A stretch of DNA of 44,021 nucleotides from a virus. Below the pieces are notes generated by a model. The model saw nothing but the letters and a program-made list of their open reading frames with translations, was not told where the DNA came from and made no database searches. The stretch lies in UHGV virus genome UHGV-0153635; one strand, written 5' to 3'. Below are positions 2,128-36,012 of this stretch, piece by piece; positions within the stretch are counted from its first letter, which is position 1, and each line of letters begins with the position of its first letter. Both the position numbers and the translations under genes were made by a program.

Positions 2128-2253
2128 TTTGTGCTTCCTTCTTCAATAAGTTTCATTGCCCGGCCCCAGGCTGACTCAGCGCTGAAGCCGTTAGCGAGTA
2201 GGTACTGCATGTACTGGTACGCAATGCTCTGGATAGTCATACCGTGCAACCTC

Positions 2254-2414
2254 TAAAGTGCTGTGATAAGTGTATTAGGGTAGCTGGCGCGTAAGCCCTG
2301 CCACGTTGCTGAGAAATAAAAATAAGCCTGGTGGCGAATCTTACGACGGTCCATATCCGGGTACAGCTTAGTGAGGGATTTTGTAATCTTGCTTAAGCGT
2401 TGTTGCTTTGTCAT
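2254..2414 (-). CDS. hypothetical small basic protein (~53 aa)
   Basis: Manual translation; ATG at 2414..2412 lies 9 nt downstream of the AGAGG inside the conserved 12-mer AGAGGTTGCACG. Confidence 0.3.
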
Positions 2415-4901: not shown

Positions 4902-4903
4902 TT

Positions 4904-4955
4904 AAATGTCCTCAAATTAATTACCTATAGTATATAGCGTAGCGCCTATACGCTA
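4904..4955 (-). repeat. copy 1 of a duplicated ~45-bp upstream element (second copy 5555..5604)
   Basis: Shared core AAATGTCCTCAAATTAATTACC plus TATAG..AGCGTAGCG..TATA with hairpin potential, read on the plus strand in both copies. Confidence 0.5.
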
Positions 4956-5534: not shown

Positions 5535-5554
5535 AGTACCCTCCTCAACATAGT

Positions 5555-5604
5555 AAATGTCCTCAAATTAATTACCCTCCTTATAGAGCGTAGCGAGTAT
5601 AAGG
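5555..5604 (-). repeat. copy 2 of the duplicated ~45-bp upstream element
   Basis: Same core as 4904..4955. Confidence 0.5.
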
Positions 5605-12855: not shown

Positions 12856-15800
12856 TTAATCATCTCCAAAGTTATTAATGATGGCTCGCGTAGGCGCGAA
12901 CTCCTGAATCAAAGGCATCTGCTTAGACAAGCCCTTTGCATCTACATTACCGCTAGCTACGTCCTGCATTAAGCCGAGCATACCCATGATGTACCCCATA
13001 CCAGCCAAGCTATGACGCGGGGATTGGTCCCCAAATACATCCTGAATCATAGTAAGACCACCGAGCACGGACATACCCATTACTGCATCCGTAATGAGCT
13101 TCTTGTCAGACTGTTCCCCGGCTTTCCCATCCAGAGCATACTTAGCCTGGGTCATGAGCAGCATCATAGGGAACTGGTATGCAGCGATATGCGCTAAGCC
13201 AATCCAGCCTGCATCATTCATCTCCCTGCGCAGAATCTTGTTCGTAGCAGCCATAGCAAAGCTCTGGTAGCCTACAACAACCTTCCCTACTGGGCTGAAT
13301 TGTGCAAAGTGACTGGTCTCACCTGTACGCACCTGCTGCACTACGTAGTCCATTAAGCGCGAGCCTACAACTTCCATTTGCATTTGCAGGTCCGGTGGTA
13401 GCATCTTCCCAGGGTTCTTGGCATACGCAGCTTGCATCTGCTTAGCGAGGTCCTTATCCAGGCCCCAGCGCTCCAGGCGCTTGACTGCATCAGCAGAACC
13501 ACTGAGCATACTCTGCAACTCGTCCATAACGATACCAGAGTTCCAGTTAACCTGCGCCCTGTGCACCATGGACATCCCGTTAACATGCCGAGCAGCCTGG
13601 CCTACGTTCTGTGTAACGTTGAACCAATTGCTACTGCGTGTCAAATCCAGGTTATCGTCAGCATAGGTATTGAGCCAGCGGAAGCGCATCTCCTTCTGCA
13701 AAGAGCCTCGCAGGATAGAATCCAGGCGCCCAGCCATGTCCTGGTCCTTAAAGACTACTGAGCCTTCCTTGAACCACGGTTGTTCGCGCATACTCCGAAG
13801 CACGCGAGCCATACCAAACTCTTTCATAGCCAGAGCTGTGTCGGTAATCTGGTACAGCGCGGAGTTCTTGAGCATGGTTGCGTTAGCAAGGTTCCCAGCG
13901 GCACGGAAGATTTCAGGAAGCTGTGCTCCTGCACCACCCGCTACACCGCCGAGCATGAAGTCGATGGTGTCATTCACAGCCTGTTCCCATCTACCCGGGT
14001 CAGCCAGCGTATGCTTACCGTCGTTAATCATAGTCTCAAGCTGCTTCAGGTCCTCTATACCCGCGTAGGACATGCCTACACGCCCCGACATCCTGTTAGT
14101 GTACCCATGCATTACCTTGGCTACATCAGTGTCCAGGAGGTCCTGTAAGCGCATTGGTTGCCCATCCACGATATACTCCTTGGACATATTAAAGCGGTTA
14201 CGCTGCTTCAGGTTCCGGGCAGGGGCAGTGGCTCCAGATGGCTTAACGTTAGTCGCTAAGAACCCTTGGATATCCGCCTCATCGATGCCCGCTTGCCGCA
14301 TAGCCATGACAAGTTCATCATTGCCCATACCGTTAATAAGCTGCTTCCACATAGGCCCAGTACCACCAGCCCGACCATTATAAATACCATCCGTAATCTC
14401 CTTAGCTACGCGCTGGACTACTTCAGATTCCATGGTAGGGTAGATATCACGCAGGGCCTGACGGAACAGGTCCCGGTAGTTATCCAGAGTACGCCCCTCT
14501 CGTAGAGCCTGTCGCATCTTGTCGTAACTGTACTGGCGCGGGAAGTAGTAGTCTGAGCGTACAATAGTAGCGTCGTCTACAAGCCCAGAGGCCTGCATAT
14601 GGTCGTACCATTTCCCAGCCCAACCAGAGTCCTTATACGCTTTAATTACCGGGGCAATGTCCTCTGATGGCACAGGTACAGCACGCCCAGCTACCTCAGC
14701 AGAATAAGCATCATCAAGGTATACACCTACACGTTGCTCCAAGTCCCGTCGCGCAGTGATAAACTTAGAACGATGGAAGAACCTGTCCAGCATACCTACG
14801 CCCTGCTGTTGCTTCAGGGCGCTTGTAATAGCGTCCTCAACGACACTGGCACTGGCATCCATCTCAAGCATCAGGTTACGCTTAAAGTCTGCTACAGAGG
14901 GTTTACGAGCGCCTACAGCAGCTCCATCAGATACCAGTAAATCTGCGAGGTCCTTGTTACCCTGGGCGATGTTATCATACAGGGCGAAGTTGGTTCTGAA
15001 GCCTGTCTTAACCTTATCCAGCAGTTTCTGGTCCCCTGCTGGGGTAGCTGCTACGTTCTCTCCGAAGCTGGACATGGACTCGCTCTTGAAGCGCACGGCC
15101 TGGGCATCTTCAGCCGCAACCTTAAGTACACTCTCATAGGAATCCAGAACCTTGGCTAACGCAGTGTCATTACCCTTGTATCCCAGGGCACGCAGAACTG
15201 TCTCACCGATACGGCGCAGCAGCGTCTTATCCCCGACCTGTACAGAGTTCAGGTAGTCCACCCAGTGCTTGCTATCCGCTAACCCCGCCAGCATCTCCTC
15301 TGGAGAATTAGCGAAGTAGCGCAGGTTCTTGGGTAGGTCTGCACGTCCCAGAAGCTCATGTCCCAGCTTCTGCAAGGTTTCTCTTGCAGCAACAGCCTCA
15401 GGTACAGTGGAGCTGATAGCTCGTACTGTAGCAGCGTGTACAAGCTCATGCACAGCAATCTTAGCAGTGTTCTGGTCCAGAGAGTTCAGAGCATCCCCTA
15501 CAGTGCTCCAGGTCTTACCCTGAGAAGCTTTACTGGCACGCATAGCAACGTAGTCTGTACCTTGCTCTGGCATGCGATAGTACGCGCTGCGCAGGTTCGT
15601 GTCCCCTGTCAGGTGCACAGATACATCATCCACTAAGCCATCCAGTGTCTTCAGAATAGCTTTCTGACCATCGTCCAGATACGTAGACTTCATGAGGTGC
15701 TCAGCAACATCCTTAGCACGCACTACAACCTTCGCCTGCTGCCCTTTCAGTACCTGGATAGGTTCTACCAAGGACTTAGCCGCAACCTCCTCAGAGGCCG

Positions 15801-16566
15801 CTGTACGAGCGTATACAGTGTCTTTAGCAGTACGCTTAGTAGGTGCATCTGGGTCAAAGCGCGAGGCTCTGCTAGCAGCTGATTCAGCACGTCCAGTAGC
15901 CTTAGCTACTTTAGCCATATCCCAGAGCTGGTCTACACCGGAGATACCTGCAACCAGTGCAGCTACCCCTTCGCTTTGCCCGAGCTGGTCAGAAGCATAT
16001 ATAGCACTTCCGACATCCACAGCGCGAATGGCAGTACGAGCAGCCAACCCAGCACGTCCCGCCACGCCTGCGGCTCCCAGAGGAGCAAGCATAATGGGGG
16101 CATCCCCAATAATAGAACCTGCAATACCTGATATAATATTCTTAGATACATCCCGGTCCCTCTGGCGTTGCTCCAGCATTTGCTGTATACGGTACTGATA
16201 ATCGTCCTGACTCACGGAGTCATGCAGATACTCAATCTCGTCCTGATTAGGTGCAAGCAGGCGCATACTCTGGTCCTGCGGCATAACCTTACGAGCATCC
16301 CAGTTGTAGTCTGTCTCGAAGTTCGGAGCGTCAGCTTTACGGATAGCCGCAGCGATGATGCTATTGCCTATACCAGCAGCGAAGCTCTCACCCGCTGTAA
16401 CAGCAGGGGTCTTACCTGATGCCTGGATAGCGGCACGCTCTAAAGCGTTCACACCCATGTCTGTAGCACTGTTCCAGTCCAGCTTCTCTGCTGCCTGTAC
16501 AGGTGCTACGCTCTTAGCAGAATCCTTTTCTTGTGGATTAGCTTCTTGATTCAAGAACTGAGCCAT
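12856..16566 (-). CDS. internal virion / ejection protein (T7 gp16-like)
   Basis: 1236 aa, largest gene, position between gp15-like and tail fiber; ATG 16566 with GAGGGA RBS. Confidence 0.7.
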   Translation of the reverse strand: MAQFLNQEANPQEKDSAKSVAPVQAAEKLDWNSATDMGVNALERAAIQASGKTPAVTAGESFAAGIGNSIIAAAIRKADAPNFETDYNWDARKVMPQDQSMRLLAPNQDEIEYLHDSVSQDDYQYRIQQMLEQRQRDRDVSKNIISGIAGSIIGDAPIMLAPLGAAGVAGRAGLAARTAIRAVDVGSAIYASDQLGQSEGVAALVAGISGVDQLWDMAKVAKATGRAESAASRASRFDPDAPTKRTAKDTVYARTAASEEVAAKSLVEPIQVLKGQQAKVVVRAKDVAEHLMKSTYLDDGQKAILKTLDGLVDDVSVHLTGDTNLRSAYYRMPEQGTDYVAMRASKASQGKTWSTVGDALNSLDQNTAKIAVHELVHAATVRAISSTVPEAVAARETLQKLGHELLGRADLPKNLRYFANSPEEMLAGLADSKHWVDYLNSVQVGDKTLLRRIGETVLRALGYKGNDTALAKVLDSYESVLKVAAEDAQAVRFKSESMSSFGENVAATPAGDQKLLDKVKTGFRTNFALYDNIAQGNKDLADLLVSDGAAVGARKPSVADFKRNLMLEMDASASVVEDAITSALKQQQGVGMLDRFFHRSKFITARRDLEQRVGVYLDDAYSAEVAGRAVPVPSEDIAPVIKAYKDSGWAGKWYDHMQASGLVDDATIVRSDYYFPRQYSYDKMRQALREGRTLDNYRDLFRQALRDIYPTMESEVVQRVAKEITDGIYNGRAGGTGPMWKQLINGMGNDELVMAMRQAGIDEADIQGFLATNVKPSGATAPARNLKQRNRFNMSKEYIVDGQPMRLQDLLDTDVAKVMHGYTNRMSGRVGMSYAGIEDLKQLETMINDGKHTLADPGRWEQAVNDTIDFMLGGVAGGAGAQLPEIFRAAGNLANATMLKNSALYQITDTALAMKEFGMARVLRSMREQPWFKEGSVVFKDQDMAGRLDSILRGSLQKEMRFRWLNTYADDNLDLTRSSNWFNVTQNVGQAARHVNGMSMVHRAQVNWNSGIVMDELQSMLSGSADAVKRLERWGLDKDLAKQMQAAYAKNPGKMLPPDLQMQMEVVGSRLMDYVVQQVRTGETSHFAQFSPVGKVVVGYQSFAMAATNKILRREMNDAGWIGLAHIAAYQFPMMLLMTQAKYALDGKAGEQSDKKLITDAVMGMSVLGGLTMIQDVFGDQSPRHSLAGMGYIMGMLGLMQDVASGNVDAKGLSKQMPLIQEFAPTRAIINNFGDD

Positions 16567-16662
16567 TGTATTCCCTCAAAAGAATTGTGATAAGAGCAGG
16601 GGCCGAAGCCCCTTGCTTTAATTAAACTAGTCTATTTCCTAGTAGCCAAGATAAGGACCACC

Positions 16663-17055
16663 TCACTTTCTGCCGAACGGAGTAAACCATTCCTGCTGAG
16701 ACGAGTGCCTACCCTTATCCAGACTCTCTTGGATGTTATCCGAATGAGTTACTGGACGCAGGTGACGGGGATTAATACAAGCAGGGTTATCGCAAGAATG
16801 CGCAAGTTCGAGTTCAGCCTGGTCGTAGTCACCTTTGTGGAGCACGTATGACACCTTGTGCGCCCCTAGGTTCTTACCACCTATCTTGAACCTCCCATAA
16901 CCATACTGGTCCTTACTCCCCAGGTACTCTATGCAACCATCCTCCTTGACAGTGCTAAGTCTATACAGCCGACTGTATGGATTCTCCCTACATGGCTGGG
17001 ATACCATCCAATTAAAGTCGTACACGATGCATCCTCCGTTAGAAGCGGGTTCCAT
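16663..17055 (-). CDS. HNH endonuclease (distinct from the other four); start uncertain
   Basis: ELAHSCDNPACINPRHLRPVTHSDN motif; track ORF runs to GTG 17130 overlapping the upstream gene, ATG 17055 chosen. Confidence 0.7.
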   Translation of the reverse strand: MEPASNGGCIVYDFNWMVSQPCRENPYSRLYRLSTVKEDGCIEYLGSKDQYGYGRFKIGGKNLGAHKVSYVLHKGDYDQAELELAHSCDNPACINPRHLRPVTHSDNIQESLDKGRHSSQQEWFTPFGRK

Positions 17056-19723
17056 ACAGCCAACTGCGGAAGTTCTCTTCCAAGTACTTCTTACGTGATG
17101 GCTGCGCCTGCTTGTACGCTGGTTGTGCACGCAGAGTCTGCCAGGCCTTACCCTCGGCTTCGGAGACCGGGTACTGGTAAGCCCCTACAGGTTGCTTCTG
17201 CGCTTTACGAACCTGCGCTACTGCTTCTGCTACTGGAGCAGAACTACCGTTACCGCCGTGATAGTTCAGGTCAAACATAACCTTCATGGCTTCATCTGTT
17301 GCTGGTAAAGCGTTAGACTTAAGCTGCTTCTGCACGGCCGGGAGGTACTGCTTCTCCATGCTGGTCTTCAGCACAGACACAGCCCAGGCTGGTGTAAGCT
17401 CCTTAGGAACAGGCATACCGGACTTGTCATGCAGGCCAAAGCCTACGCTACCATTGCCCTTCTTAGCCCTGTATCCTTCGAACTGCATGGTATTAGCTGT
17501 AATCTCAGAGAACAGGTTCGGGTCTACACCAACAGTGTTCTTCCCATCCACGTTCATCTGCACAGTACGCCCGTTGTCATGGTCGTAGAAAGTTGCTGGT
17601 CTAGAGCCTACAGCGGTGCTGCCAATCTTGACACCGCCAGCCAGGGCCTTGTCATAACCTTCCTGAGCCAGTTCTTGTACCTGTGAGTTGTTGATGCTGA
17701 CGTTATGCATTAAGCCATCAGTATCAATTACAGTAGCAGTGAGGTTCTGCCCACGGGAACCAGCAGTCCCCGCCTGGATGATAACTTTCTGCACTTTACT
17801 AGGGTCTACAACGCCATCTACAGCATCTTGTACAGTCTGCTGCAACGCGGTGGTGTACTGCTGAGTATCCCCCTGATAGCTACCCATGAGGTCCTTCATA
17901 GAGGAGCCTGCTGGCAGGTACACATGCCGTGGCTTACCTGCTACGTCAATCTCAAGCTTACGTGCCTGGATGTTCCCAGCAAGCATAGTGCTGATATCCT
18001 CAGCGCTCTTACCTACCAGTGCCTCGGGGTTAGTACGGTACAGATAACGGTATTCCGCCTCCATAGCAGCACGCCCTTCCTGACGCTGCATATCCGCAGT
18101 GTCTCCGAAGCTGAACCAGTTAGCAGTGCCCTTGGCATCCAGCATATCCTCGGTAGGATTCACTGCTAGGTTGTTGTAGCGTCCAGAAGCCTTGTTCTGT
18201 GAGAGTCTGCGGATATCATCCAGCATGATGTTGCTGGCGTTACTAGGCCCCTGAGAGGCTGCGCGCTGCACTACGCCCTTCCAATCCCCCGGTACAGAGT
18301 CCAGCAGCGCCATCTTGCCTACATCAGTGCTTTGTTGGTACATCTGCACCCATGTAGCGATGGTAGCTTGGTTCTCTGCGGAGATTTGCCCATCCTCTCC
18401 GAGCTGGTCCAGACTCGCTAAGGTATTAGACAGGTTCTTGGACATACGAGACTGTGCAGTCTGAATAGCCCACGGGTCCTTACTGGATGCTCCGTACTGC
18501 GCTAGCAGGATGTTACCTTGCGCTGTATCAGGGAACTGCCCCAGGACTTGGTTACGAGCCTTATCGACGTCTCCGCCGAACATACCTGCCAGTACCGTGG
18601 TGGGCGCATTACTAGAGATTACGTTCTGTAGCGCGTACTTAGCAGACGCCTGCTCACGCAGCTTGTTGGCACTATCCCAGATTTCCATCTGAGTGCCTGG
18701 GCTGAGCACATCCATCTTGCCGTACTTAATTAACTCTGCACGGATAGTCTGCATACCTTGCTCTTGCTCCTCAGGGGAAGCACTTTGCAGAATCTGCAAC
18801 TGGTCCGATATATTAAAACGTACCTCAGATTCAAGCTGAGCGCCTGCGCGCTTAAACTCTGAGTACAGCGCCTTGTTAACCTCGACTGCGTTAACACCCA
18901 GCTCCCGTGTAGCGAGTTGCTGTAGCTTGTCGATGAGCATAGGGTCTGTCGTGTTCTGAGCGATACTAACCAGGTAGTTCTTAGCACGGTCCAGCTTCTT
19001 ATCTTTGTCCAGGTGCGCAGCGCCTAGGATAGCTTCCATACCGCCCATCACAGCGCCCTCGGCAGCGCCTGCTTGCCCCTGCTCGATACGCGCGTAGAAC
19101 TCATCAGAGCTAGCGCTCAGGTTCTTATCTAAGGCACGGTCAGCTTGTACTACAGCGAACTCTGCACGCCCTTTCTGGAACGCTACGTAGTTGCCTGCGC
19201 TGGTCATTTGCAACTGCTTCAGGGCGGCTGCTTGGGACTGCTTATCCATCTTAGGGAGGTACAGTCCGAGCTTATCTTGCATCTGCTGTACGTACTTCTG
19301 CTCCTGCTGATGGAACTCCTGGTCAGACATTCCAGACAGCGCTGCATCACTAGCACGCTTAACAGAATCAGCTTTCCACCGGGCTAGCTCCCCGCTAGCC
19401 GCAGCTTGTAAGTACCCTTCCTGGTAATACCCCCGGAGCAGGAACCCTTGCTTCTTAACGTTCTCGTCCAGTTCCCCGGCAGCATCCATAGAGCCTTGAG
19501 CATCCATAGCGCCACGTACAGCAGCCTTAGCGCCCTCAGCTTCTACACCCTGCTGAAACCCTACTGTAAAATCCCCGAAGAACTTCTCTACTGCGGCCCT
19601 ACGATTCAGGGATGCCTGGTCAATAGTAGGAGCACCCACGCCTACAGCGAAGTCTACCTGAGAGGGTGCTAGCTCAGCAGCCCCCAGATTCAGGCCCTGT
19701 CGCTGTGTATTAATTACTGGCAT
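17039..19723 (-). CDS. internal virion protein (T7 gp15-like)
   Basis: 894 aa; position; ATG 19723 with GGGAG RBS. Confidence 0.65.
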   Translation of the reverse strand: MPVINTQRQGLNLGAAELAPSQVDFAVGVGAPTIDQASLNRRAAVEKFFGDFTVGFQQGVEAEGAKAAVRGAMDAQGSMDAAGELDENVKKQGFLLRGYYQEGYLQAAASGELARWKADSVKRASDAALSGMSDQEFHQQEQKYVQQMQDKLGLYLPKMDKQSQAAALKQLQMTSAGNYVAFQKGRAEFAVVQADRALDKNLSASSDEFYARIEQGQAGAAEGAVMGGMEAILGAAHLDKDKKLDRAKNYLVSIAQNTTDPMLIDKLQQLATRELGVNAVEVNKALYSEFKRAGAQLESEVRFNISDQLQILQSASPEEQEQGMQTIRAELIKYGKMDVLSPGTQMEIWDSANKLREQASAKYALQNVISSNAPTTVLAGMFGGDVDKARNQVLGQFPDTAQGNILLAQYGASSKDPWAIQTAQSRMSKNLSNTLASLDQLGEDGQISAENQATIATWVQMYQQSTDVGKMALLDSVPGDWKGVVQRAASQGPSNASNIMLDDIRRLSQNKASGRYNNLAVNPTEDMLDAKGTANWFSFGDTADMQRQEGRAAMEAEYRYLYRTNPEALVGKSAEDISTMLAGNIQARKLEIDVAGKPRHVYLPAGSSMKDLMGSYQGDTQQYTTALQQTVQDAVDGVVDPSKVQKVIIQAGTAGSRGQNLTATVIDTDGLMHNVSINNSQVQELAQEGYDKALAGGVKIGSTAVGSRPATFYDHDNGRTVQMNVDGKNTVGVDPNLFSEITANTMQFEGYRAKKGNGSVGFGLHDKSGMPVPKELTPAWAVSVLKTSMEKQYLPAVQKQLKSNALPATDEAMKVMFDLNYHGGNGSSAPVAEAVAQVRKAQKQPVGAYQYPVSEAEGKAWQTLRAQPAYKQAQPSRKKYLEENFRSWLYGTRF

Positions 19724-23284: not shown

Positions 23285-23516
23285 TAGGGCATCTCCTGTT
23301 TGATTAAAAGGGTTGTGGCTGGAAGTTACTTTACTACTCCCCGCATTCCGGGGGACCTATTACCAGGGACCAACAGTGTCTTGCCTCTTTGAACAAGATT
23401 GCACCCCTGAACCATTTAACAACGTTGCGTATGCACCACAACGGAAAGAGCACTGCATGGTTTTACCATTACATCCGAGGATTTATCTGGTGTAGTCAAT
23501 GCTCTTACCTGTTGTA

Positions 23517-23576
23517 GTTTCTGAGGCCCAGAAACGAAAAAAGCCCCGTACCTCCAGTTAAGGAAGCACGGGGCTT
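23517..23576 (-). terminator. intrinsic terminator downstream of the capsid gene (T-phi analogue), two tandem hairpins
   Basis: Minus strand: stem AGCCCCGT/ACGGGGCT followed by TTTTTT, then second stem GTTTCTG/CAGAAAC. Confidence 0.6.
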
Positions 23577-23580
23577 GGGT

Positions 23581-23799
23581 TTACTCTGAGGCTTTCGCAG
23601 CCTTCTTAGCTTTCTTTTGAACAGGTGCAATCTCAGCACCTAGCTCCTTACTCAACAGCTCTTGCACCGCAGCCAGCACTTCTTCTGTAGTCGCCTCAGT
23701 ACCAAGGCGCTTCAGAGCTACCTCAATCTTAGGCAGCGCCAGCAGAGCCTGCTGGCGCTTAGTGCTAGGGCGGCTGCTGAAACTAGCTAGAACAGCCAT
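23581..23799 (-). CDS. small Lys/Ala-rich protein (72 aa) directly after the capsid gene in the -1 frame
   Basis: ATG 23799 with AGGGG RBS, 12 nt past the capsid stop. Confidence 0.45.
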   Translation of the reverse strand: MAVLASFSSRPSTKRQQALLALPKIEVALKRLGTEATTEEVLAAVQELLSKELGAEIAPVQKKAKKAAKASE

Positions 23800-26167: not shown

Positions 26168-27733
26168 TTATGCGATTAAGCCCAGTTGCTGAGCCGCTTG
26201 ATTAGGGTCTGCTGCCTGAAGAGCCTGTTGTTGCTGCTGCGCTGCTTGAGCTGCTCGCGTATCCTCCTGCTCCTGCAACTGCTTCAACTGCTCTTCCGTG
26301 TAGAAGAACTTGCTGCTGTTGATACCGAAGCTATCAAACACCGTATCAATCAAGGCATCCACGTTAGTACGCTTAGTGTACGTTTGTAGCACAGGTACAA
26401 TCAACTGCAAGGACTGCGTAGCTTCCAGTAGGCGGTCATTCTGCGCTGCTTTAGCGAGGGCTGCTGTACCCACCACGACATTCAGTGTCATAGCTTGCAG
26501 GTCCAACAGCGGCTGCATCTGCGGGTACAGCTCCAGACAGTACAGGTACGCCAGCTTAGTAAGCCATACGCTGCTTAGCTGACTGTACGCATCCCCCAGA
26601 GCCTCCTGTGCCTCCTGAGCATTCTGACGAATCTCATACGCCGTAACACGCTCTGCATCCCTGGTGTTGCCTCCGTACATAAACGCGCGGGCAAGACGTT
26701 GCTCAATGCTGGCAATCTCAGCCTGCATGACCTGAATCTTCTGGTAGACGCCGCCCTCATAGGCCCATATACCGGGGCCAGTAGTACCAGCCGGGGCATT
26801 AGTCTGGATGATGTCCCCTACCGCAGCTTCGTTGAATGCGTCGATATCTACACCGGATGCAGAGTTAGACATGTTCACAAAGCGCATAGCTTCAACTTCG
26901 TACAGCGTCAGGGCTTTACTCAGCTCAGATAATCTAGCGAACTCACCCGCGTAGTCCTCAACCAGCCCACGCCCGTAATGCTCAGAGTTAACGCGGTTCC
27001 AGACCAGTACCGTGTACGGGCACTGTTTCTCCGGATAGTAGCTAGGCTCGCCAACAGGTTTATTATCAACCTCCTGGTACACCTTGTAGACTACTGCACC
27101 GCCTTCTCGCACCTCACGGCATACGCCTGTATAGAGTTCCAGGTCCTCGTAATCTGCCTTGTTGTCGTACTGGATACGGTACTCATCGGGTAAATCCCCA
27201 ACGCAGATACGCTCCTTCAGGACAATCAGCATTACATCGCCAGAGCCATTACGCTTAACCGCGTAATCTCGGATGCTGTAGATATGAGAGCGCTGACGCT
27301 GCTTATCCCGGTACTCCAGGGCATTCCCTGTAACCATCAGCAGCTTCGTAGCGTGCAGCTTCGCAGCGTACTCTTCGTCTTTGTAGACCTGTGCCGACGC
27401 AGCCAGCTCAATCTCTGCCTGTACACTCGGTACTTCGCCCTGGATACCCAGCTCACCAACTACACCAGCCAGCTCATCGCTGTCTACGAAGCGGAAGAAC
27501 GGTGCTCCTTGAGGGAACAGCGATTTAACCACCTTGGTACTAGCGGTGTTAATCAGGATAGCTCCGAGGCTCTGGTAGTCCCGGTGCAGCGCCGAGCGCT
27601 TGCCGTCCATACCGGACAGGTCGCGCGTGAACACTGTGGGCAAAGACCACTCCGCGAATTTTTCAGCAGCTGTAAGGCATGAACTATCTTGCAGCTTAGC
27701 AAACAGCCCCGCTAGAGGCTCTTTAGGTTTCAT
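26168..27733 (-). CDS. portal (head-tail connector) protein (T7 gp8-like)
   Basis: ATG 27733 with GGAGG RBS (track GTG 27739 rejected); ATG overlaps the HNH stop as ATGA. Confidence 0.8.
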   Translation of the reverse strand: MKPKEPLAGLFAKLQDSSCLTAAEKFAEWSLPTVFTRDLSGMDGKRSALHRDYQSLGAILINTASTKVVKSLFPQGAPFFRFVDSDELAGVVGELGIQGEVPSVQAEIELAASAQVYKDEEYAAKLHATKLLMVTGNALEYRDKQRQRSHIYSIRDYAVKRNGSGDVMLIVLKERICVGDLPDEYRIQYDNKADYEDLELYTGVCREVREGGAVVYKVYQEVDNKPVGEPSYYPEKQCPYTVLVWNRVNSEHYGRGLVEDYAGEFARLSELSKALTLYEVEAMRFVNMSNSASGVDIDAFNEAAVGDIIQTNAPAGTTGPGIWAYEGGVYQKIQVMQAEIASIEQRLARAFMYGGNTRDAERVTAYEIRQNAQEAQEALGDAYSQLSSVWLTKLAYLYCLELYPQMQPLLDLQAMTLNVVVGTAALAKAAQNDRLLEATQSLQLIVPVLQTYTKRTNVDALIDTVFDSFGINSSKFFYTEEQLKQLQEQEDTRAAQAAQQQQQALQAADPNQAAQQLGLIA

Positions 27734-33669: not shown

Positions 33670-34090
33670 TCTTAATTACCTCCCGTGCTTTCCTCTGTGC
33701 CCGCACCCTACGGCGCTTAGCGTTCTGTGCTGCCTTAGCTTCTTCCTCGGTCTTCCAGGAGTAGTACAGCAGCTGCGTTGGTTCCCGGTCTAGATAGTCA
33801 GCCACCCGGCGTAGAGCAGCAGCGATAGCAGCGCTAGACTGCATACTCCCAACAATCCAACGCCCAGCGGCTGATGCCACTTTGCCTTCTCCACCGTTAC
33901 AAGAGCGGTGCAAAGCCCCGCGAATACGCCCAGTTATATGGCAATGGTCAACCACAACAGAGTCACCTTTAACCCCCTTGATTGAGAAGTCCAGAGCACC
34001 TCCACAGAGCAGGCACACCCCGCCCTGCTCCTTCGCCAGCTTCATAGCTACGCTGCGGATTTGCCCGCGCGTAATCTTGCGTAGAATCAT
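33662..34090 (-). CDS. endonuclease VII-type Holliday-junction resolvase
   Basis: CLLCGG...VVDHCHITGRIRGALHRSCNGGEGK matches the T4 endo VII zinc/HNH-like core. Confidence 0.8.
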   Translation of the reverse strand: MILRKITRGQIRSVAMKLAKEQGGVCLLCGGALDFSIKGVKGDSVVVDHCHITGRIRGALHRSCNGGEGKVASAAGRWIVGSMQSSAAIAAALRRVADYLDREPTQLLYYSWKTEEEAKAAQNAKRRRVRAQRKAREVIKNG

Positions 34091-35946: not shown

Positions 35947-36012
35947 AATCCTTAGAGGCCCACTAGGGGCCTATTGCATTGGGTAGGTTTCAAAGTCTAA
36001 CTGTGCTGGCGT

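What the first reader, a model, noticed from the sequence alone, without database searches (positions are those of the whole stretch)
16567..16662. GC-rich hairpin with a TTCG loop between the HNH gene and the gp16-like gene
The minus strand reads AAGGGGC TTCG GCCCCTG followed by a partly U-rich stretch, in the 96-bp gap after HNH 16663-17055 and before ATG 16566. It could be a processing/stability element or a weak terminator isolating the inserted HNH gene.
Basis: seen in the sequence. Interest (0 to 1): 0.2.

Follow-up and report, generated by a model that had tools for sequence, protein, structure and literature searches.

The report
Conserved RNA hairpin before phage gp16
The GC-rich hairpin is real, but it is a native stem-loop found just upstream of the gp16-like internal virion gene in all KP34-like podophages examined, with or without the HNH gene; it is most likely a weak transcript boundary or mRNA-stability element, which is an ordinary kind of feature.

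Summary
Observation confirmed. On the minus (gene) strand, 16616..16596 reads GCAAGGGGC-UUCG-GCCCCUGC, a c(UUCG)g-capped stem of -13.4 kcal/mol. It is one of the four most stable compact hairpins on that strand.

The interpretation that it insulates the inserted HNH gene is not supported. Five HNH-less Koutsourovirus relatives carry the same 100-nt gp15-gp16 spacer, hairpin included. The HNH gene is a bare 372-bp insertion (17032..16661) upstream of the hairpin.

A hairpin occupies the same place in Drulisvirus, Vibrio VP93-like, E. coli, Proteus and Providencia relatives. The stems differ and show compensatory changes, while loop identity varies. In 60 distinct Drulisvirus contexts the hairpin and leader are about 15-fold less variable than neighbouring synonymous sites.

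The hairpin lacks a canonical U-tract (T-tail score 0.5-2.5, against 4.3-5.9 for the post-capsid terminators of the window phage and KP34). It is too short for RNase III and matches no Rfam family.

Downstream lies a separable conserved leader, TTATCA-N5-CTTT-SD, that goes with the gp16 start.

Best reading (inferred, not shown): an intercistronic stem-loop acting as a leaky terminator and/or 3'-exonuclease barrier, followed by the gp16 translation-initiation leader. This is a new member of a known kind, of low interest.

The parts
16596..16616 (-). Stem-loop GCAAGGGGC-UUCG-GCCCCUGC. The 6-bp perfect core is 16613..16598, and it extends to 8 bp with one bulged A. The tetraloop is c(UUCG)g.
   Evidence: Sequence; fold -13.4 kcal/mol, z -2.84; centroid structure of the gap; among the 4 most stable 21-nt folds on this strand. 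It is conserved, with compensatory stem changes, across lineages.
16588..16594 (-). CTTATCA box, 1-3 nt after the stem. TTATCA is invariant in the aligned Koutsourovirus, Drulisvirus, L064, L065/L142 and Vibrio sequences.
   Evidence: Invariant columns in alignment A4. Where the gap is longer (L014, L037, P64441) the box stays next to the gp16 ribosome-binding site rather than next to the hairpin. A second exact TTATCA-N5-CTTT+GAGG lies at 2269..2247, before another start codon.
16573..16582 (-). CTTTT followed by the Shine-Dalgarno GAGGG, 6 nt before ATG 16566. This is the 3' half of the gp16 translation-initiation leader. From memory, it resembles the T7 gene 10 leader ...CTTTAAGAAGGAGATATACATATG.
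   Evidence: Sequence. CTTT is invariant in A4. The leader's nucleotide diversity is 0.019 in 60 Drulisvirus contexts.
16617..16660 (-). Koutsourovirus-specific native spacer between the insertion point and the hairpin. It is absent from Drulisvirus, whose gap is 50 nt. It contains a weak ACTAG/CTAGT inverted repeat and a second CCTTATC.
   Evidence: Alignments A1 and A2; fold.
16661..17032 (-). 372-bp insertion carrying only the HNH endonuclease ORF (GTG 17025 to TGA 16663). A GAGG microhomology flanks both junctions: TAACGGAGG|ATGCATC...AAGTGAGG|TGGTCC.
   Evidence: Gap in alignment A1 against five relatives. Pfam HNH_3, 26.6 bits, E 4.7e-6. No DNA match among 50,697 phage records.
17033..17037 (-). 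GGAGG immediately after the gp15 stop codon. It is native sequence, also present in empty sites, and now sits 7 nt upstream of the HNH GTG start, where it can serve as its Shine-Dalgarno.
17039..19723 (-). Upstream gene: T7 gp15-like internal virion protein B (894 aa).
   Evidence: ORF list; annotation of homologues.
12856..16566 (-). Downstream gene: T7 gp16-like internal virion protein / ejectosome component (1236 aa).
   Evidence: ORF list; annotation of homologues.

Best explanation
The window is a complete, circularly permuted genome of a KP34-like podophage (Autographiviridae, Slopekvirinae, genus Koutsourovirus). All genes are on the minus strand.

The hairpin is a native sense-strand RNA stem-loop in the spacer between the gp15-like and gp16-like internal virion genes. 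That spacer is one of only a few non-coding gaps in the late operon.

Shown:
- The hairpin predates the HNH insertion.
- A hairpin is kept at this junction across several genera, although the stem sequences differ.
- The hairpin and the leader are under strong purifying selection.

Inferred: the hairpin acts on the long late transcript as a segment boundary. It would be a leaky terminator or pause site and/or a barrier to 3'-to-5' exonucleases. The effect would be that the upstream segment (capsid, tail and gp14-gp15, here also HNH) accumulates more than gp16 and the genes after it. T7 virions contain fewer copies of gp16 than of gp15 (from memory).

The adjoining TTATCA-N5-CTTT-SD leader is a separable part, the translation-initiation region of gp16. 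The HNH cassette has neither promoter nor terminator of its own. It simply inserted upstream of this unit and rides on the gp15 transcript.
For: Identity of the phage: about 93% DNA identity to phiKDA1 and Entb_48.

Native origin: five HNH-less relatives share the spacer and the hairpin.

Structural conservation with different stems:
- Koutsourovirus GCAAGGGGC/GCCCCUGC
- Drulisvirus GAGGCCC/GGGCCUC
- L065/L142 GUGGGGCC/GGCCCCGC, with a U.G pair that is possible only on the sense strand
- Vibrio GGUGGGGC/GCCCCUCC
- P64441 GGGAUAC/GUAUCCC against L080 GGGGUAC/GUACCCC
- PM16/PS3 GAGGGUAG/CUACCCUC
.

Pair counts on A4: 94% of cells paired against 76% in shuffles, three pairs changed on both sides, and pairing collapses when the partners are slid.

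Purifying selection in 60 distinct Drulisvirus contexts: diversity is 0.025 for the hairpin and 0.019 for the leader, against 0.17-0.36 at flanking third codon positions. All stem positions are invariant among the 41 contexts of modal spacer length.

Not a canonical terminator: the stem is -11 to -16 kcal/mol and the T-tail score 0.5-2.5. The post-capsid terminators of the window phage and KP34 score -25 to -30 kcal/mol and 4.3-5.9.

Genomic context: in KP34 this is one of only two gaps of 40 nt or more in the late operon, the other holding the annotated terminator. It is KP34's most stable compact hairpin.

Prior annotation: the PM16 RefSeq record marks the homologous spot as a putative rho-independent terminator.

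No promoter here: the KP34 RNAP promoter is absent, as is the window's own repeated motif.

A hairpin followed by YTTAT is a mapped terminator motif in phiKZ (PMC10914365).
Against: No transcript 3'-end, decay or expression data exist for any of these phages. Searches found none, so the functional step is inference.

The tail is a poor U-tract, so termination by host RNAP would be weak at best. How KP34-type single-subunit RNAPs respond to it is unknown.

In five lineages the hairpin lies a constant 27-31 nt from the gp16 ATG, which fits a 5'-UTR or translation role equally well.

In P64441-type phages a near-perfect sigma70 promoter lies just upstream of the hairpin. That would be odd for a terminator.

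Much of the covariation signal in A4 rests on one lineage split, Drulisvirus against the rest.
Confidence: 0.5

Rival explanations
1. 5'-UTR or translation element of gp16. The hairpin together with the TTATCA box would form the upstream boundary of the gp16 translation-initiation region. Possible roles: keeping the AU-rich leader unstructured as a ribosome standby site; uncoupling gp16 initiation from ribosomes terminating on gp15; stabilising a processed 5' end; or serving as an operator for a translational repressor.
For: The distance from hairpin to ATG is constant at 27-31 nt in Koutsourovirus, Drulisvirus, L064, L065 and Vibrio phages, while the distance to the upstream stop codon varies from 3 to about 430 nt.

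Every insertion lies upstream of the hairpin: HNH here, a 66-aa ORF in PS3 and a promoter-like hairpin in P64441.

The 32-nt leader is invariant in Drulisvirus.

A second TTATCA-N5-CTTT-GAGG precedes another start codon in the window.

In P64441-type phages a promoter-like TTGACG-17-TATAAT would place the hairpin near a transcript's 5' end.
Against: In P64441, L014 and PM16 types the hairpin is 46-76 nt from the ATG, and the TTATCA box stays with the ribosome-binding site, not with the hairpin. The two parts are therefore separable.

The hairpin does not occlude the SD or the start codon.

No candidate RNA-binding protein is known.
Confidence: 0.25
2. An efficient, canonical rho-independent terminator that ends the upstream late transcription unit, as annotated for Proteus phage PM16.
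For: GC-rich stem with a UUCG loop, as in KP34's verified-type terminator GCCCCTGGTGCC-TTCG-GGTGCCAGGGGC-T10. PM16 annotation. In KP34 a strong phage promoter lies 744 nt further on, inside gp16, and could restart transcription for downstream genes.
Against: There is no U-run. The T-tail score is 0.5-2.5, against 4.3-5.9 for the post-capsid terminators of the window phage and KP34, and the stem has half their stability. It was not flagged on the gene strand by the terminator scan. Eriksson et al., using ARNold, reported only the post-capsid terminator in five KP34-like genomes. Efficient termination would starve gp16, which has no promoter between the hairpin and its start codon. No phage-promoter motif lies in or after the gap in the window.
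Confidence: 0.1
3. One reading: the hairpin belongs to, or evolved to insulate, the inserted HNH homing-endonuclease gene.
For: It lies directly downstream of the HNH stop codon.
Against: The hairpin and the spacer are identical in HNH-less relatives, and homologous hairpins occur in several other lineages. The insertion ends 44 nt upstream of the hairpin.
Confidence: 0.03
4. A DNA-level or polymerase-specific signal. The palindrome plus the invariant TTATCA would be a protein-binding site, or a sequence-specific (class II-like) pause or termination signal for the KP34-type single-subunit RNAP. Alternatively it could be a plus-strand terminator for antisense transcripts.
For: The TTATCA sequence is invariant across lineages, not just its composition. 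The stem sequence is invariant within Drulisvirus despite 0.3 synonymous divergence. It shares TATC followed by a T-rich run with the T7 class II signal ATCTGTT (from memory). The plus-strand reading passes the terminator rule in the window.
Against: Stem sequences differ completely between lineages while pairing is kept, which is the RNA-structure signature. The T-rich plus-strand tail is absent in Drulisvirus. There are no plus-strand genes. The motif is single-copy apart from one leader-like match at 2269. Only 4 of the 7 class II positions match.
Confidence: 0.07

Closest known systems
Weak or leaky intrinsic terminators, and the phage's own post-capsid (T-phi-like) terminator (window 23575..23531; KP34 26623..26660)
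   Same: GC-rich stem-loop between co-oriented late genes, transcribed in the sense direction. The KP34 terminator also has a c(UUCG)g loop. The homologous PM16 site is annotated as a putative rho-independent terminator.
   Different: The stem is half as long and half as stable. There is no U-run: the tail is C/U-rich with UUAU, and the T-tail score is 0.5-2.5 against 4.3-5.9.
C(UUCG)G hairpins in intercistronic regions of phage T4 mRNAs (Tuerk et al. 1988, PNAS 85:1364; from memory, not in the searchable library)
   Same: An unusually stable UNCG-capped short GC hairpin between cistrons of a phage polycistronic mRNA, proposed to stabilise mRNA or organise its folding.
   Different: A different phage family. 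Here loop identity is not conserved: UUCG, UCCG, UACG, CUCG, UCCA, AUUA, GUGU and ACCU all occur. The stem matters, not the tetraloop.
Intercistronic decay-barrier hairpins that set differential expression within operons (REP in malE-malF, puf operon hairpins, pap operon; from memory)
   Same: A stable stem-loop at the 3' side of the more abundant upstream segment, with an AU-rich single-stranded stretch downstream that could be an endonuclease entry point.
   Different: No decay or processing data exist here. The element is single-copy rather than a repeated family.
phiKZ terminator motif: stem-loop followed by TTAT (5'-BCCYCCCCHWWDGGGRRGGBYTTATKYYGT-3'; Putzeys et al. 2024, PMC10914365)
   Same: A G/C-rich hairpin followed by YTTAT rather than by a long U-run, mapped there as real transcript 3' ends.
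   Different: phiKZ uses unrelated multisubunit RNAPs and has 61 copies of the motif. Here there is one copy per genome, and the TTATCA box segregates with the downstream ribosome-binding site when the gap is longer.
T7 RNase III processing sites (R sites)
   Same: Intergenic stem-loops in late mRNAs of a T7-like phage.
   Different: R sites are about 20-bp irregular duplexes. This stem has 6-8 bp, which is too short for RNase III.

Membership tests
Intrinsic (rho-independent) terminator | GC-rich stem of 5 bp or more with a 3-8-nt loop | tested here: met
   6-bp perfect core (8 bp with a bulge), 5 GC pairs in the core, 4-nt loop, -13.4 kcal/mol.
Intrinsic (rho-independent) terminator | U-tract immediately 3' of the stem (at least 5 U in 8 nt, or a high T-tail score) | tested here: not met
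   4 U in the first 8 nt. The T-tail score is 0.75-2.1 here and 0.5-2.5 in homologues, against 4.3 and 5.9 for the bona fide terminators. The gene strand was not reported by the terminator scan.
Intrinsic (rho-independent) terminator | Transcript 3' ends at the base of the stem | not testable with these tools
   No transcriptome data were found for Koutsourovirus or Drulisvirus.
UNCG extra-stable tetraloop hairpin | c(UNCG)g loop with a C-G closing pair | tested here: met
   GGGGC-UUCG-GCCCC in the window. UUCG, UCCG and UACG occur in most relatives, but CUCG, UCCA, AUUA, AUUU, GUGU and ACCU in others. The feature is therefore present here but not conserved.
RNase III processing site (T7 R-site type) | About 20 bp or more of (interrupted) double-stranded RNA | tested here: not met
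   Only 6-8 bp. No longer helix appears in the 96-nt fold centroid or in the alignment fold.
Any curated Rfam family | Covariance-model match at or near the gathering score | tested here: not met
   No hit in 15500-18000 at E<=10 other than an irrelevant 18.6-bit match elsewhere. No hit in the whole window at gathering thresholds.
Phage single-subunit RNAP promoter (KP34 strong promoter T(A/G)ATGTTACAGGAGTA) | Match to the experimentally defined 16-nt promoter | tested here: not met
   No match with 3 or fewer mismatches near the gap. The window's own repeated motif GAGGTTGCACG is not in the gap either.
Part of the HNH mobile cassette | Present only where the HNH gene is present | tested here: not met
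   Present in five HNH-less Koutsourovirus genomes and in other genera.
Conserved structured RNA element (generic criterion) | Base-pairing kept through compensatory changes across relatives | tested here: met
   Two G-C to C-G flips plus A-U to U.G in A4, with 94% of cells paired against 76% in shuffles. A-U to G-C change between P64441 and L080. Wholly different stems in PM16/PS3. Caveat: few independent events.

The most novel reading that the evidence does not exclude
The hairpin plus the invariant YUUAUCA box could be a dedicated cis-regulatory signal of KP34-like phages. It might be an RNA operator through which a phage protein controls gp16 translation. Or it might be a sequence-specific (class II-like) pause or termination signal read by the KP34-type single-subunit RNA polymerase, for which no termination signals have yet been defined. 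Either would explain why sequence, and not only structure, is frozen across genera.
Probability: 0.1. Interest if true: 0.45.

Novelty: new member of a known kind. Interest (0 to 1): 0.2.

Why it matters
The practical value is modest.

First, the result corrects the reading of this locus. The HNH gene is a bare 372-bp ORF dropped between a stop codon and a pre-existing regulatory hairpin. The space between the gp15 stop codon and the hairpin appears to be a recurrent insertion site in this phage group.

Second, it defines an unannotated, strongly conserved non-coding module (hairpin plus TTATCA-N5-CTTT-SD leader) at the gp15/gp16 junction of Slopekvirinae and related phages. These phages are widely used as Klebsiella and Enterobacter therapy candidates, and the module could guide genome engineering: inserting payloads upstream of the hairpin is evidently tolerated.

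Third, if the hairpin is a real attenuator for KP34-type RNA polymerase, it would be a first handle on termination signals for an enzyme now being developed for in vitro RNA synthesis.

Tried and rejected
1. Rfam scans of the region (E<=10) and of the whole window found nothing relevant.

2. Phage promoter at the gap. The KP34 strong promoter is absent. A k-mer comparison with the post-RNAP region found a repeated GAGGTTGCACG motif, but not in the gap or in gp16.

3. Sigma70 promoter TTATCA-17-TACAAT, flagged. Rejected because the -10 hexamer overlaps the ATG, so a transcript would start inside gp16. The -10-like hexamer owes its last two bases to the ATG itself, preceded by the A/T-rich SD-ATG spacer, and it is not kept in several relatives.

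4. Plus-strand terminator. The tail is not conserved in Drulisvirus, and there are no plus-strand genes.

5. RNase E consensus, DnaA box, IHF site and Fur box readings of TTATCA. I compared these by eye, using consensus sequences from memory. None holds across the lineages.

6. Repeat family. The leader and the hairpin are single-copy.

7. A wider RNAalifold run (-62..+36) showed no further conserved structure upstream of the ATG. MAFFT misaligned the loop there, so A4 was used for the pair counts.

8. phiKMV comparison. gp36 and gp37 are only 3 nt apart there, so the element is not present in Krylovirinae.

9. Literature searches for transcript maps of KP34-like phages found none. The supplementary TTS tables for LUZ19 are not held.

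10. The HNH DNA has no match in the phage collection. One fold (L075:345-364) used wrong coordinates and should be ignored.

Full report
**What the window is.** All long ORFs lie on the minus strand. The region around the finding is about 93% identical to Enterobacter phages Entb_48, SDFMU_Pec, SDFMU_EhYP and phiKDA1 and to Salmonella phage KKP 3828. These belong to Autographiviridae/Slopekvirinae, genus Koutsourovirus. At 44,021 nt the window is a complete, circularly permuted genome of such a phage. The flanking genes are the T7 gp15-like internal virion protein (17039..19723, 894 aa) and the gp16-like internal virion/ejectosome protein (12856..16566, 1236 aa).

**Checking the observation.** The minus strand reads GCAAGGGGC-TTCG-GCCCCTGC at 16616..16596.
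- The perfect core AGGGGC/GCCCCT (16613..16598) was recovered by an independent hairpin scan.
- The 21-mer folds at -13.4 kcal/mol (z = -2.84), and the hairpin is the centroid of the 96-nt gap.
- The gap as a whole is not unusually structured (z = -1.21).
- Hairpins of this grade are near chance frequency genome-wide: 14 observed against 9.7 +/- 3.4 in dinucleotide shuffles, or about 0.02 expected per 96 nt.
- Only four loci on the gene strand fold as stably in 21 nt.
- The tail CUCUUAUCACAAUUCUUUU is U-rich but interrupted. The gene-strand reading failed the terminator rule; only the plus-strand reading passed.

**The hairpin is not part of the HNH insertion.** I aligned the window with five HNH-less relatives.
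- They have a 100-nt gp15-gp16 spacer that includes the same hairpin. Entb_48 and SDFMU_EhYP are identical to the window over all 96 nt.
- The window differs by a 372-bp insertion (17032..16661) placed right after TAACGGAGG, with GAGG microhomology at both junctions.
- The insert holds only an HNH_3 endonuclease ORF. It most likely starts at GTG 17025, 7 nt after the native GGAGG, and ends at TGA 16663. It has no DNA relative in the phage collection.
- The insertion ends 44 nt upstream of the hairpin.

The hairpin therefore cannot have evolved to insulate the HNH gene.

**Conservation beyond the genus.** I gathered loci through the gp16 N-terminus from IMG/VR, metagenomes and GenBank phages. 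A hairpin occupies the same junction in:
- Drulisvirus (KP34-like Klebsiella phages): GAGGCCC-UUCG/UCCG/UCCA-GGGCCUC
- two unclassified lineages: L064 GGGGC-UACG-GCCCC; L065/L142 GUGGGGCC-GUGU/ACCU-GGCCCCGC
- Vibrio VP93-like phages: GGUGGGGC-AUUA/AUUU-GCCCCUCC
- E. coli phage P64441 and relatives: GGGAUAC...GUAUCCC, with GGGGUAC...GUACCCC in L080
- Proteus PM16 and Providencia PS3: GAGGGUAG-UUCUGUG-CUACCCUC

On a 15-sequence alignment, 94% of cells pair, against 76% in shuffles. Three of the six pairs change on both sides, and pairing collapses when the partners are slid. The caveat is that much of this signal comes from one split, Drulisvirus against the rest. The unrelated stems of the P64441 and PM16 types are additional, independent support.

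The loop is not conserved, so the UUCG tetraloop is a local feature and not the functional core. L065/L142 have a U.G pair that exists only on the sense strand. phiKMV itself has no gap (3 nt) between gp36 and gp37, so the element is absent from Krylovirinae.

**Strength of selection.** In 60 distinct Drulisvirus contexts:
- Nucleotide diversity is 0.025 for the hairpin and 0.019 for the 26-nt leader.
- Third codon positions score 0.26-0.34 in the end of gp15 and 0.17-0.36 in the start of gp16.
- First and second codon positions score 0.05-0.15.
- Among the 41 contexts of modal spacer length, the only variable positions are one base before the stem, loop positions 2 and 4, and one base in the SD-ATG spacer.

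**Two separable parts.** Downstream of the stem, TTATCA and CTTT are invariant in five lineages, in the arrangement TTATCA-N5-CTTT-(N0-3)-SD-ATG. Where the gap is longer (L014, L037, P64441, PM16), the TTATCA...CTTT...SD block stays next to the start codon. The hairpin keeps only a pyrimidine-rich tail. A second exact TTATCA-N5-CTTT followed by GAGG occurs in the window at 2269..2247, directly before another start codon. The 3' half resembles the T7 gene 10 leader CTTTAAGAAGGAGATATACATATG (from memory). I therefore read this block as the gp16 translation-initiation leader, distinct from the hairpin.

**What the hairpin is not.**
- Not a canonical terminator. The stem is -11 to -16 kcal/mol and the T-tail score 0.5-2.5 in all lineages. 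The window's post-capsid terminator (23575..23531) has -28 to -30 kcal/mol and 4.3; KP34's has -25 kcal/mol and 5.9.
- Not an RNase III site, because the stem is too short.
- Not an Rfam family.
- Not a phage promoter. The experimentally defined KP34 promoter (Lu et al. 2019, PMC6834552) is absent. The window's own repeated motif GAGGTTGCACG lies elsewhere.
- Not a repeat family.
- The sigma70-like hit TTATCA-17-TACAAT overlaps the ATG and would start transcription inside gp16.
- The plus-strand terminator reading is not conserved.

**Most likely mechanism.** The late operon is almost gap-free. In KP34 only two gaps of 40 nt or more exist: the annotated post-capsid terminator and this one. This hairpin is KP34's most stable compact hairpin on the coding strand. 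The PM16 RefSeq record annotates the homologous site as a putative rho-independent terminator. In phiKZ, hairpins followed by YTTAT are mapped 3' ends (PMC10914365).

I infer an intercistronic boundary element: a leaky terminator or pause site and/or a 3'-exonuclease barrier. It would let the upstream segment outlast or outnumber the gp16 segment, which fits the lower gp16 copy number in T7-type virions (from memory). In Drulisvirus a strong phage promoter 744 nt inside gp16 could then re-supply the downstream tail, terminase and lysis genes. No transcript data exist for these phages, so this step is inference, with confidence about 0.5.

The main rival, at about 0.25, is a role tied to gp16 translation or to its 5' end. 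Supporting it are the constant 27-31-nt distance to the ATG in five lineages, the fact that every insertion lies upstream of the hairpin, and a near-perfect sigma70 promoter just upstream of the hairpin in P64441-type phages.

**Verdict.** The structure is real and conserved but of an ordinary kind. It is a new, unnamed member of a known kind. Interest is low (0.2).

Noticed in passing
window 23531-23575 (-) and 23285-23580: A canonical intrinsic terminator (15-bp stem, -29.6 kcal/mol, U6 tail) follows the capsid gene and a 72-aa ORF. After it come about 290 nt with no long ORF before the tail tubular protein A gene. KP34 has only 89 nt there, so this phage carries about 200 nt of extra, strongly folding non-coding sequence (MFE -105 kcal/mol for 296 nt).
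   Followed up: partly
window 28912, 5665, 2427, 2253 (- strand, first base of GAGGTTGCACG): Four copies of (A)GAGGTTGCACG sit near the genome's left end, just after the RNAP module and before two early genes. The first two positions parallel the KP34 strong promoters at its left end and after its RNAP gene, while the KP34 promoter sequence itself is absent. This is a candidate Koutsourovirus phage-RNAP promoter, or a shared ribosome-binding-site leader.
   Followed up: partly
window 4903-4950 and 5554-5601: A 48-nt direct repeat (83% identity) lies in the early region. It contains TATAG-type palindromes and resembles the 'putative phage promoter' motif that Eriksson et al. 2015 reported at two early sites in KP34-like phages.
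   Followed up: no
window 2247-2269 (-): A second exact TTATCA-N5-CTTT followed by GAGG overlaps the end of a 56-aa early ORF and precedes ATG 2240. The only other exact copy is the gp16 leader. With one mismatch allowed there are 7 matches, against 1.7 expected.
   Followed up: partly
L033/L145 (KP34 33721-33736) and 46 other Drulisvirus loci, locus positions 1444-1459 (2554-2570 in L006 and L007): The experimentally verified KP34 RNAP strong promoter TAATGTTACAGGAGTA lies 744 nt inside the gp16-like coding sequence and is conserved there. The window phage has no equivalent at the homologous position.
   Followed up: partly
L078 (E. coli phage P64441), L014, L080: about 60-110 nt upstream of the gp16 ATG: A near-perfect sigma70 promoter (TTGACG-17 nt-TATAAT) is embedded in a nested inverted repeat within the same gp15-gp16 gap, upstream of the conserved hairpin.
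   Followed up: no
L077 (Proteus phage PM16, NC_027342) positions 335 and 401: The RefSeq start of gp37 is 22 codons upstream of the conserved MAKFLN start, which has an AGGAG Shine-Dalgarno. The annotated start probably extends the ORF into the non-coding leader.
   Followed up: no
window 35956-35972 (-); KP34 (L145) 9472 and 15881: Other GC hairpins without a U-tract sit alone in intergenic gaps of about 50-66 nt in the DNA-metabolism region. The window 35972 hairpin corresponds in position to KP34 15881. The gp15/gp16 hairpin may therefore be one of a small class of intercistronic stem-loops in these phages.
   Followed up: partly
window 16617-17038; L076 95-292; L078 270-400: The space between the gp15 stop codon and the hairpin is a recurrent insertion site. 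It holds HNH here, a 66-aa ORF in Providencia phage PS3 and a promoter-like hairpin in P64441. In Koutsourovirus it holds a 57-nt spacer that begins with a near-perfect extended Shine-Dalgarno, TAACGGAGGTGGTCC, serving no ORF. That spacer may be a scar of an earlier gene.
   Followed up: partly
window 23735-23759 (-): An 11-bp perfect hairpin (AGCGCCAGCAG-GCT-CTGCTGGCGCT) lies inside the 72-aa ORF after the capsid gene. It has the longest perfect stem found by the hairpin scan on the gene strand.
   Followed up: no
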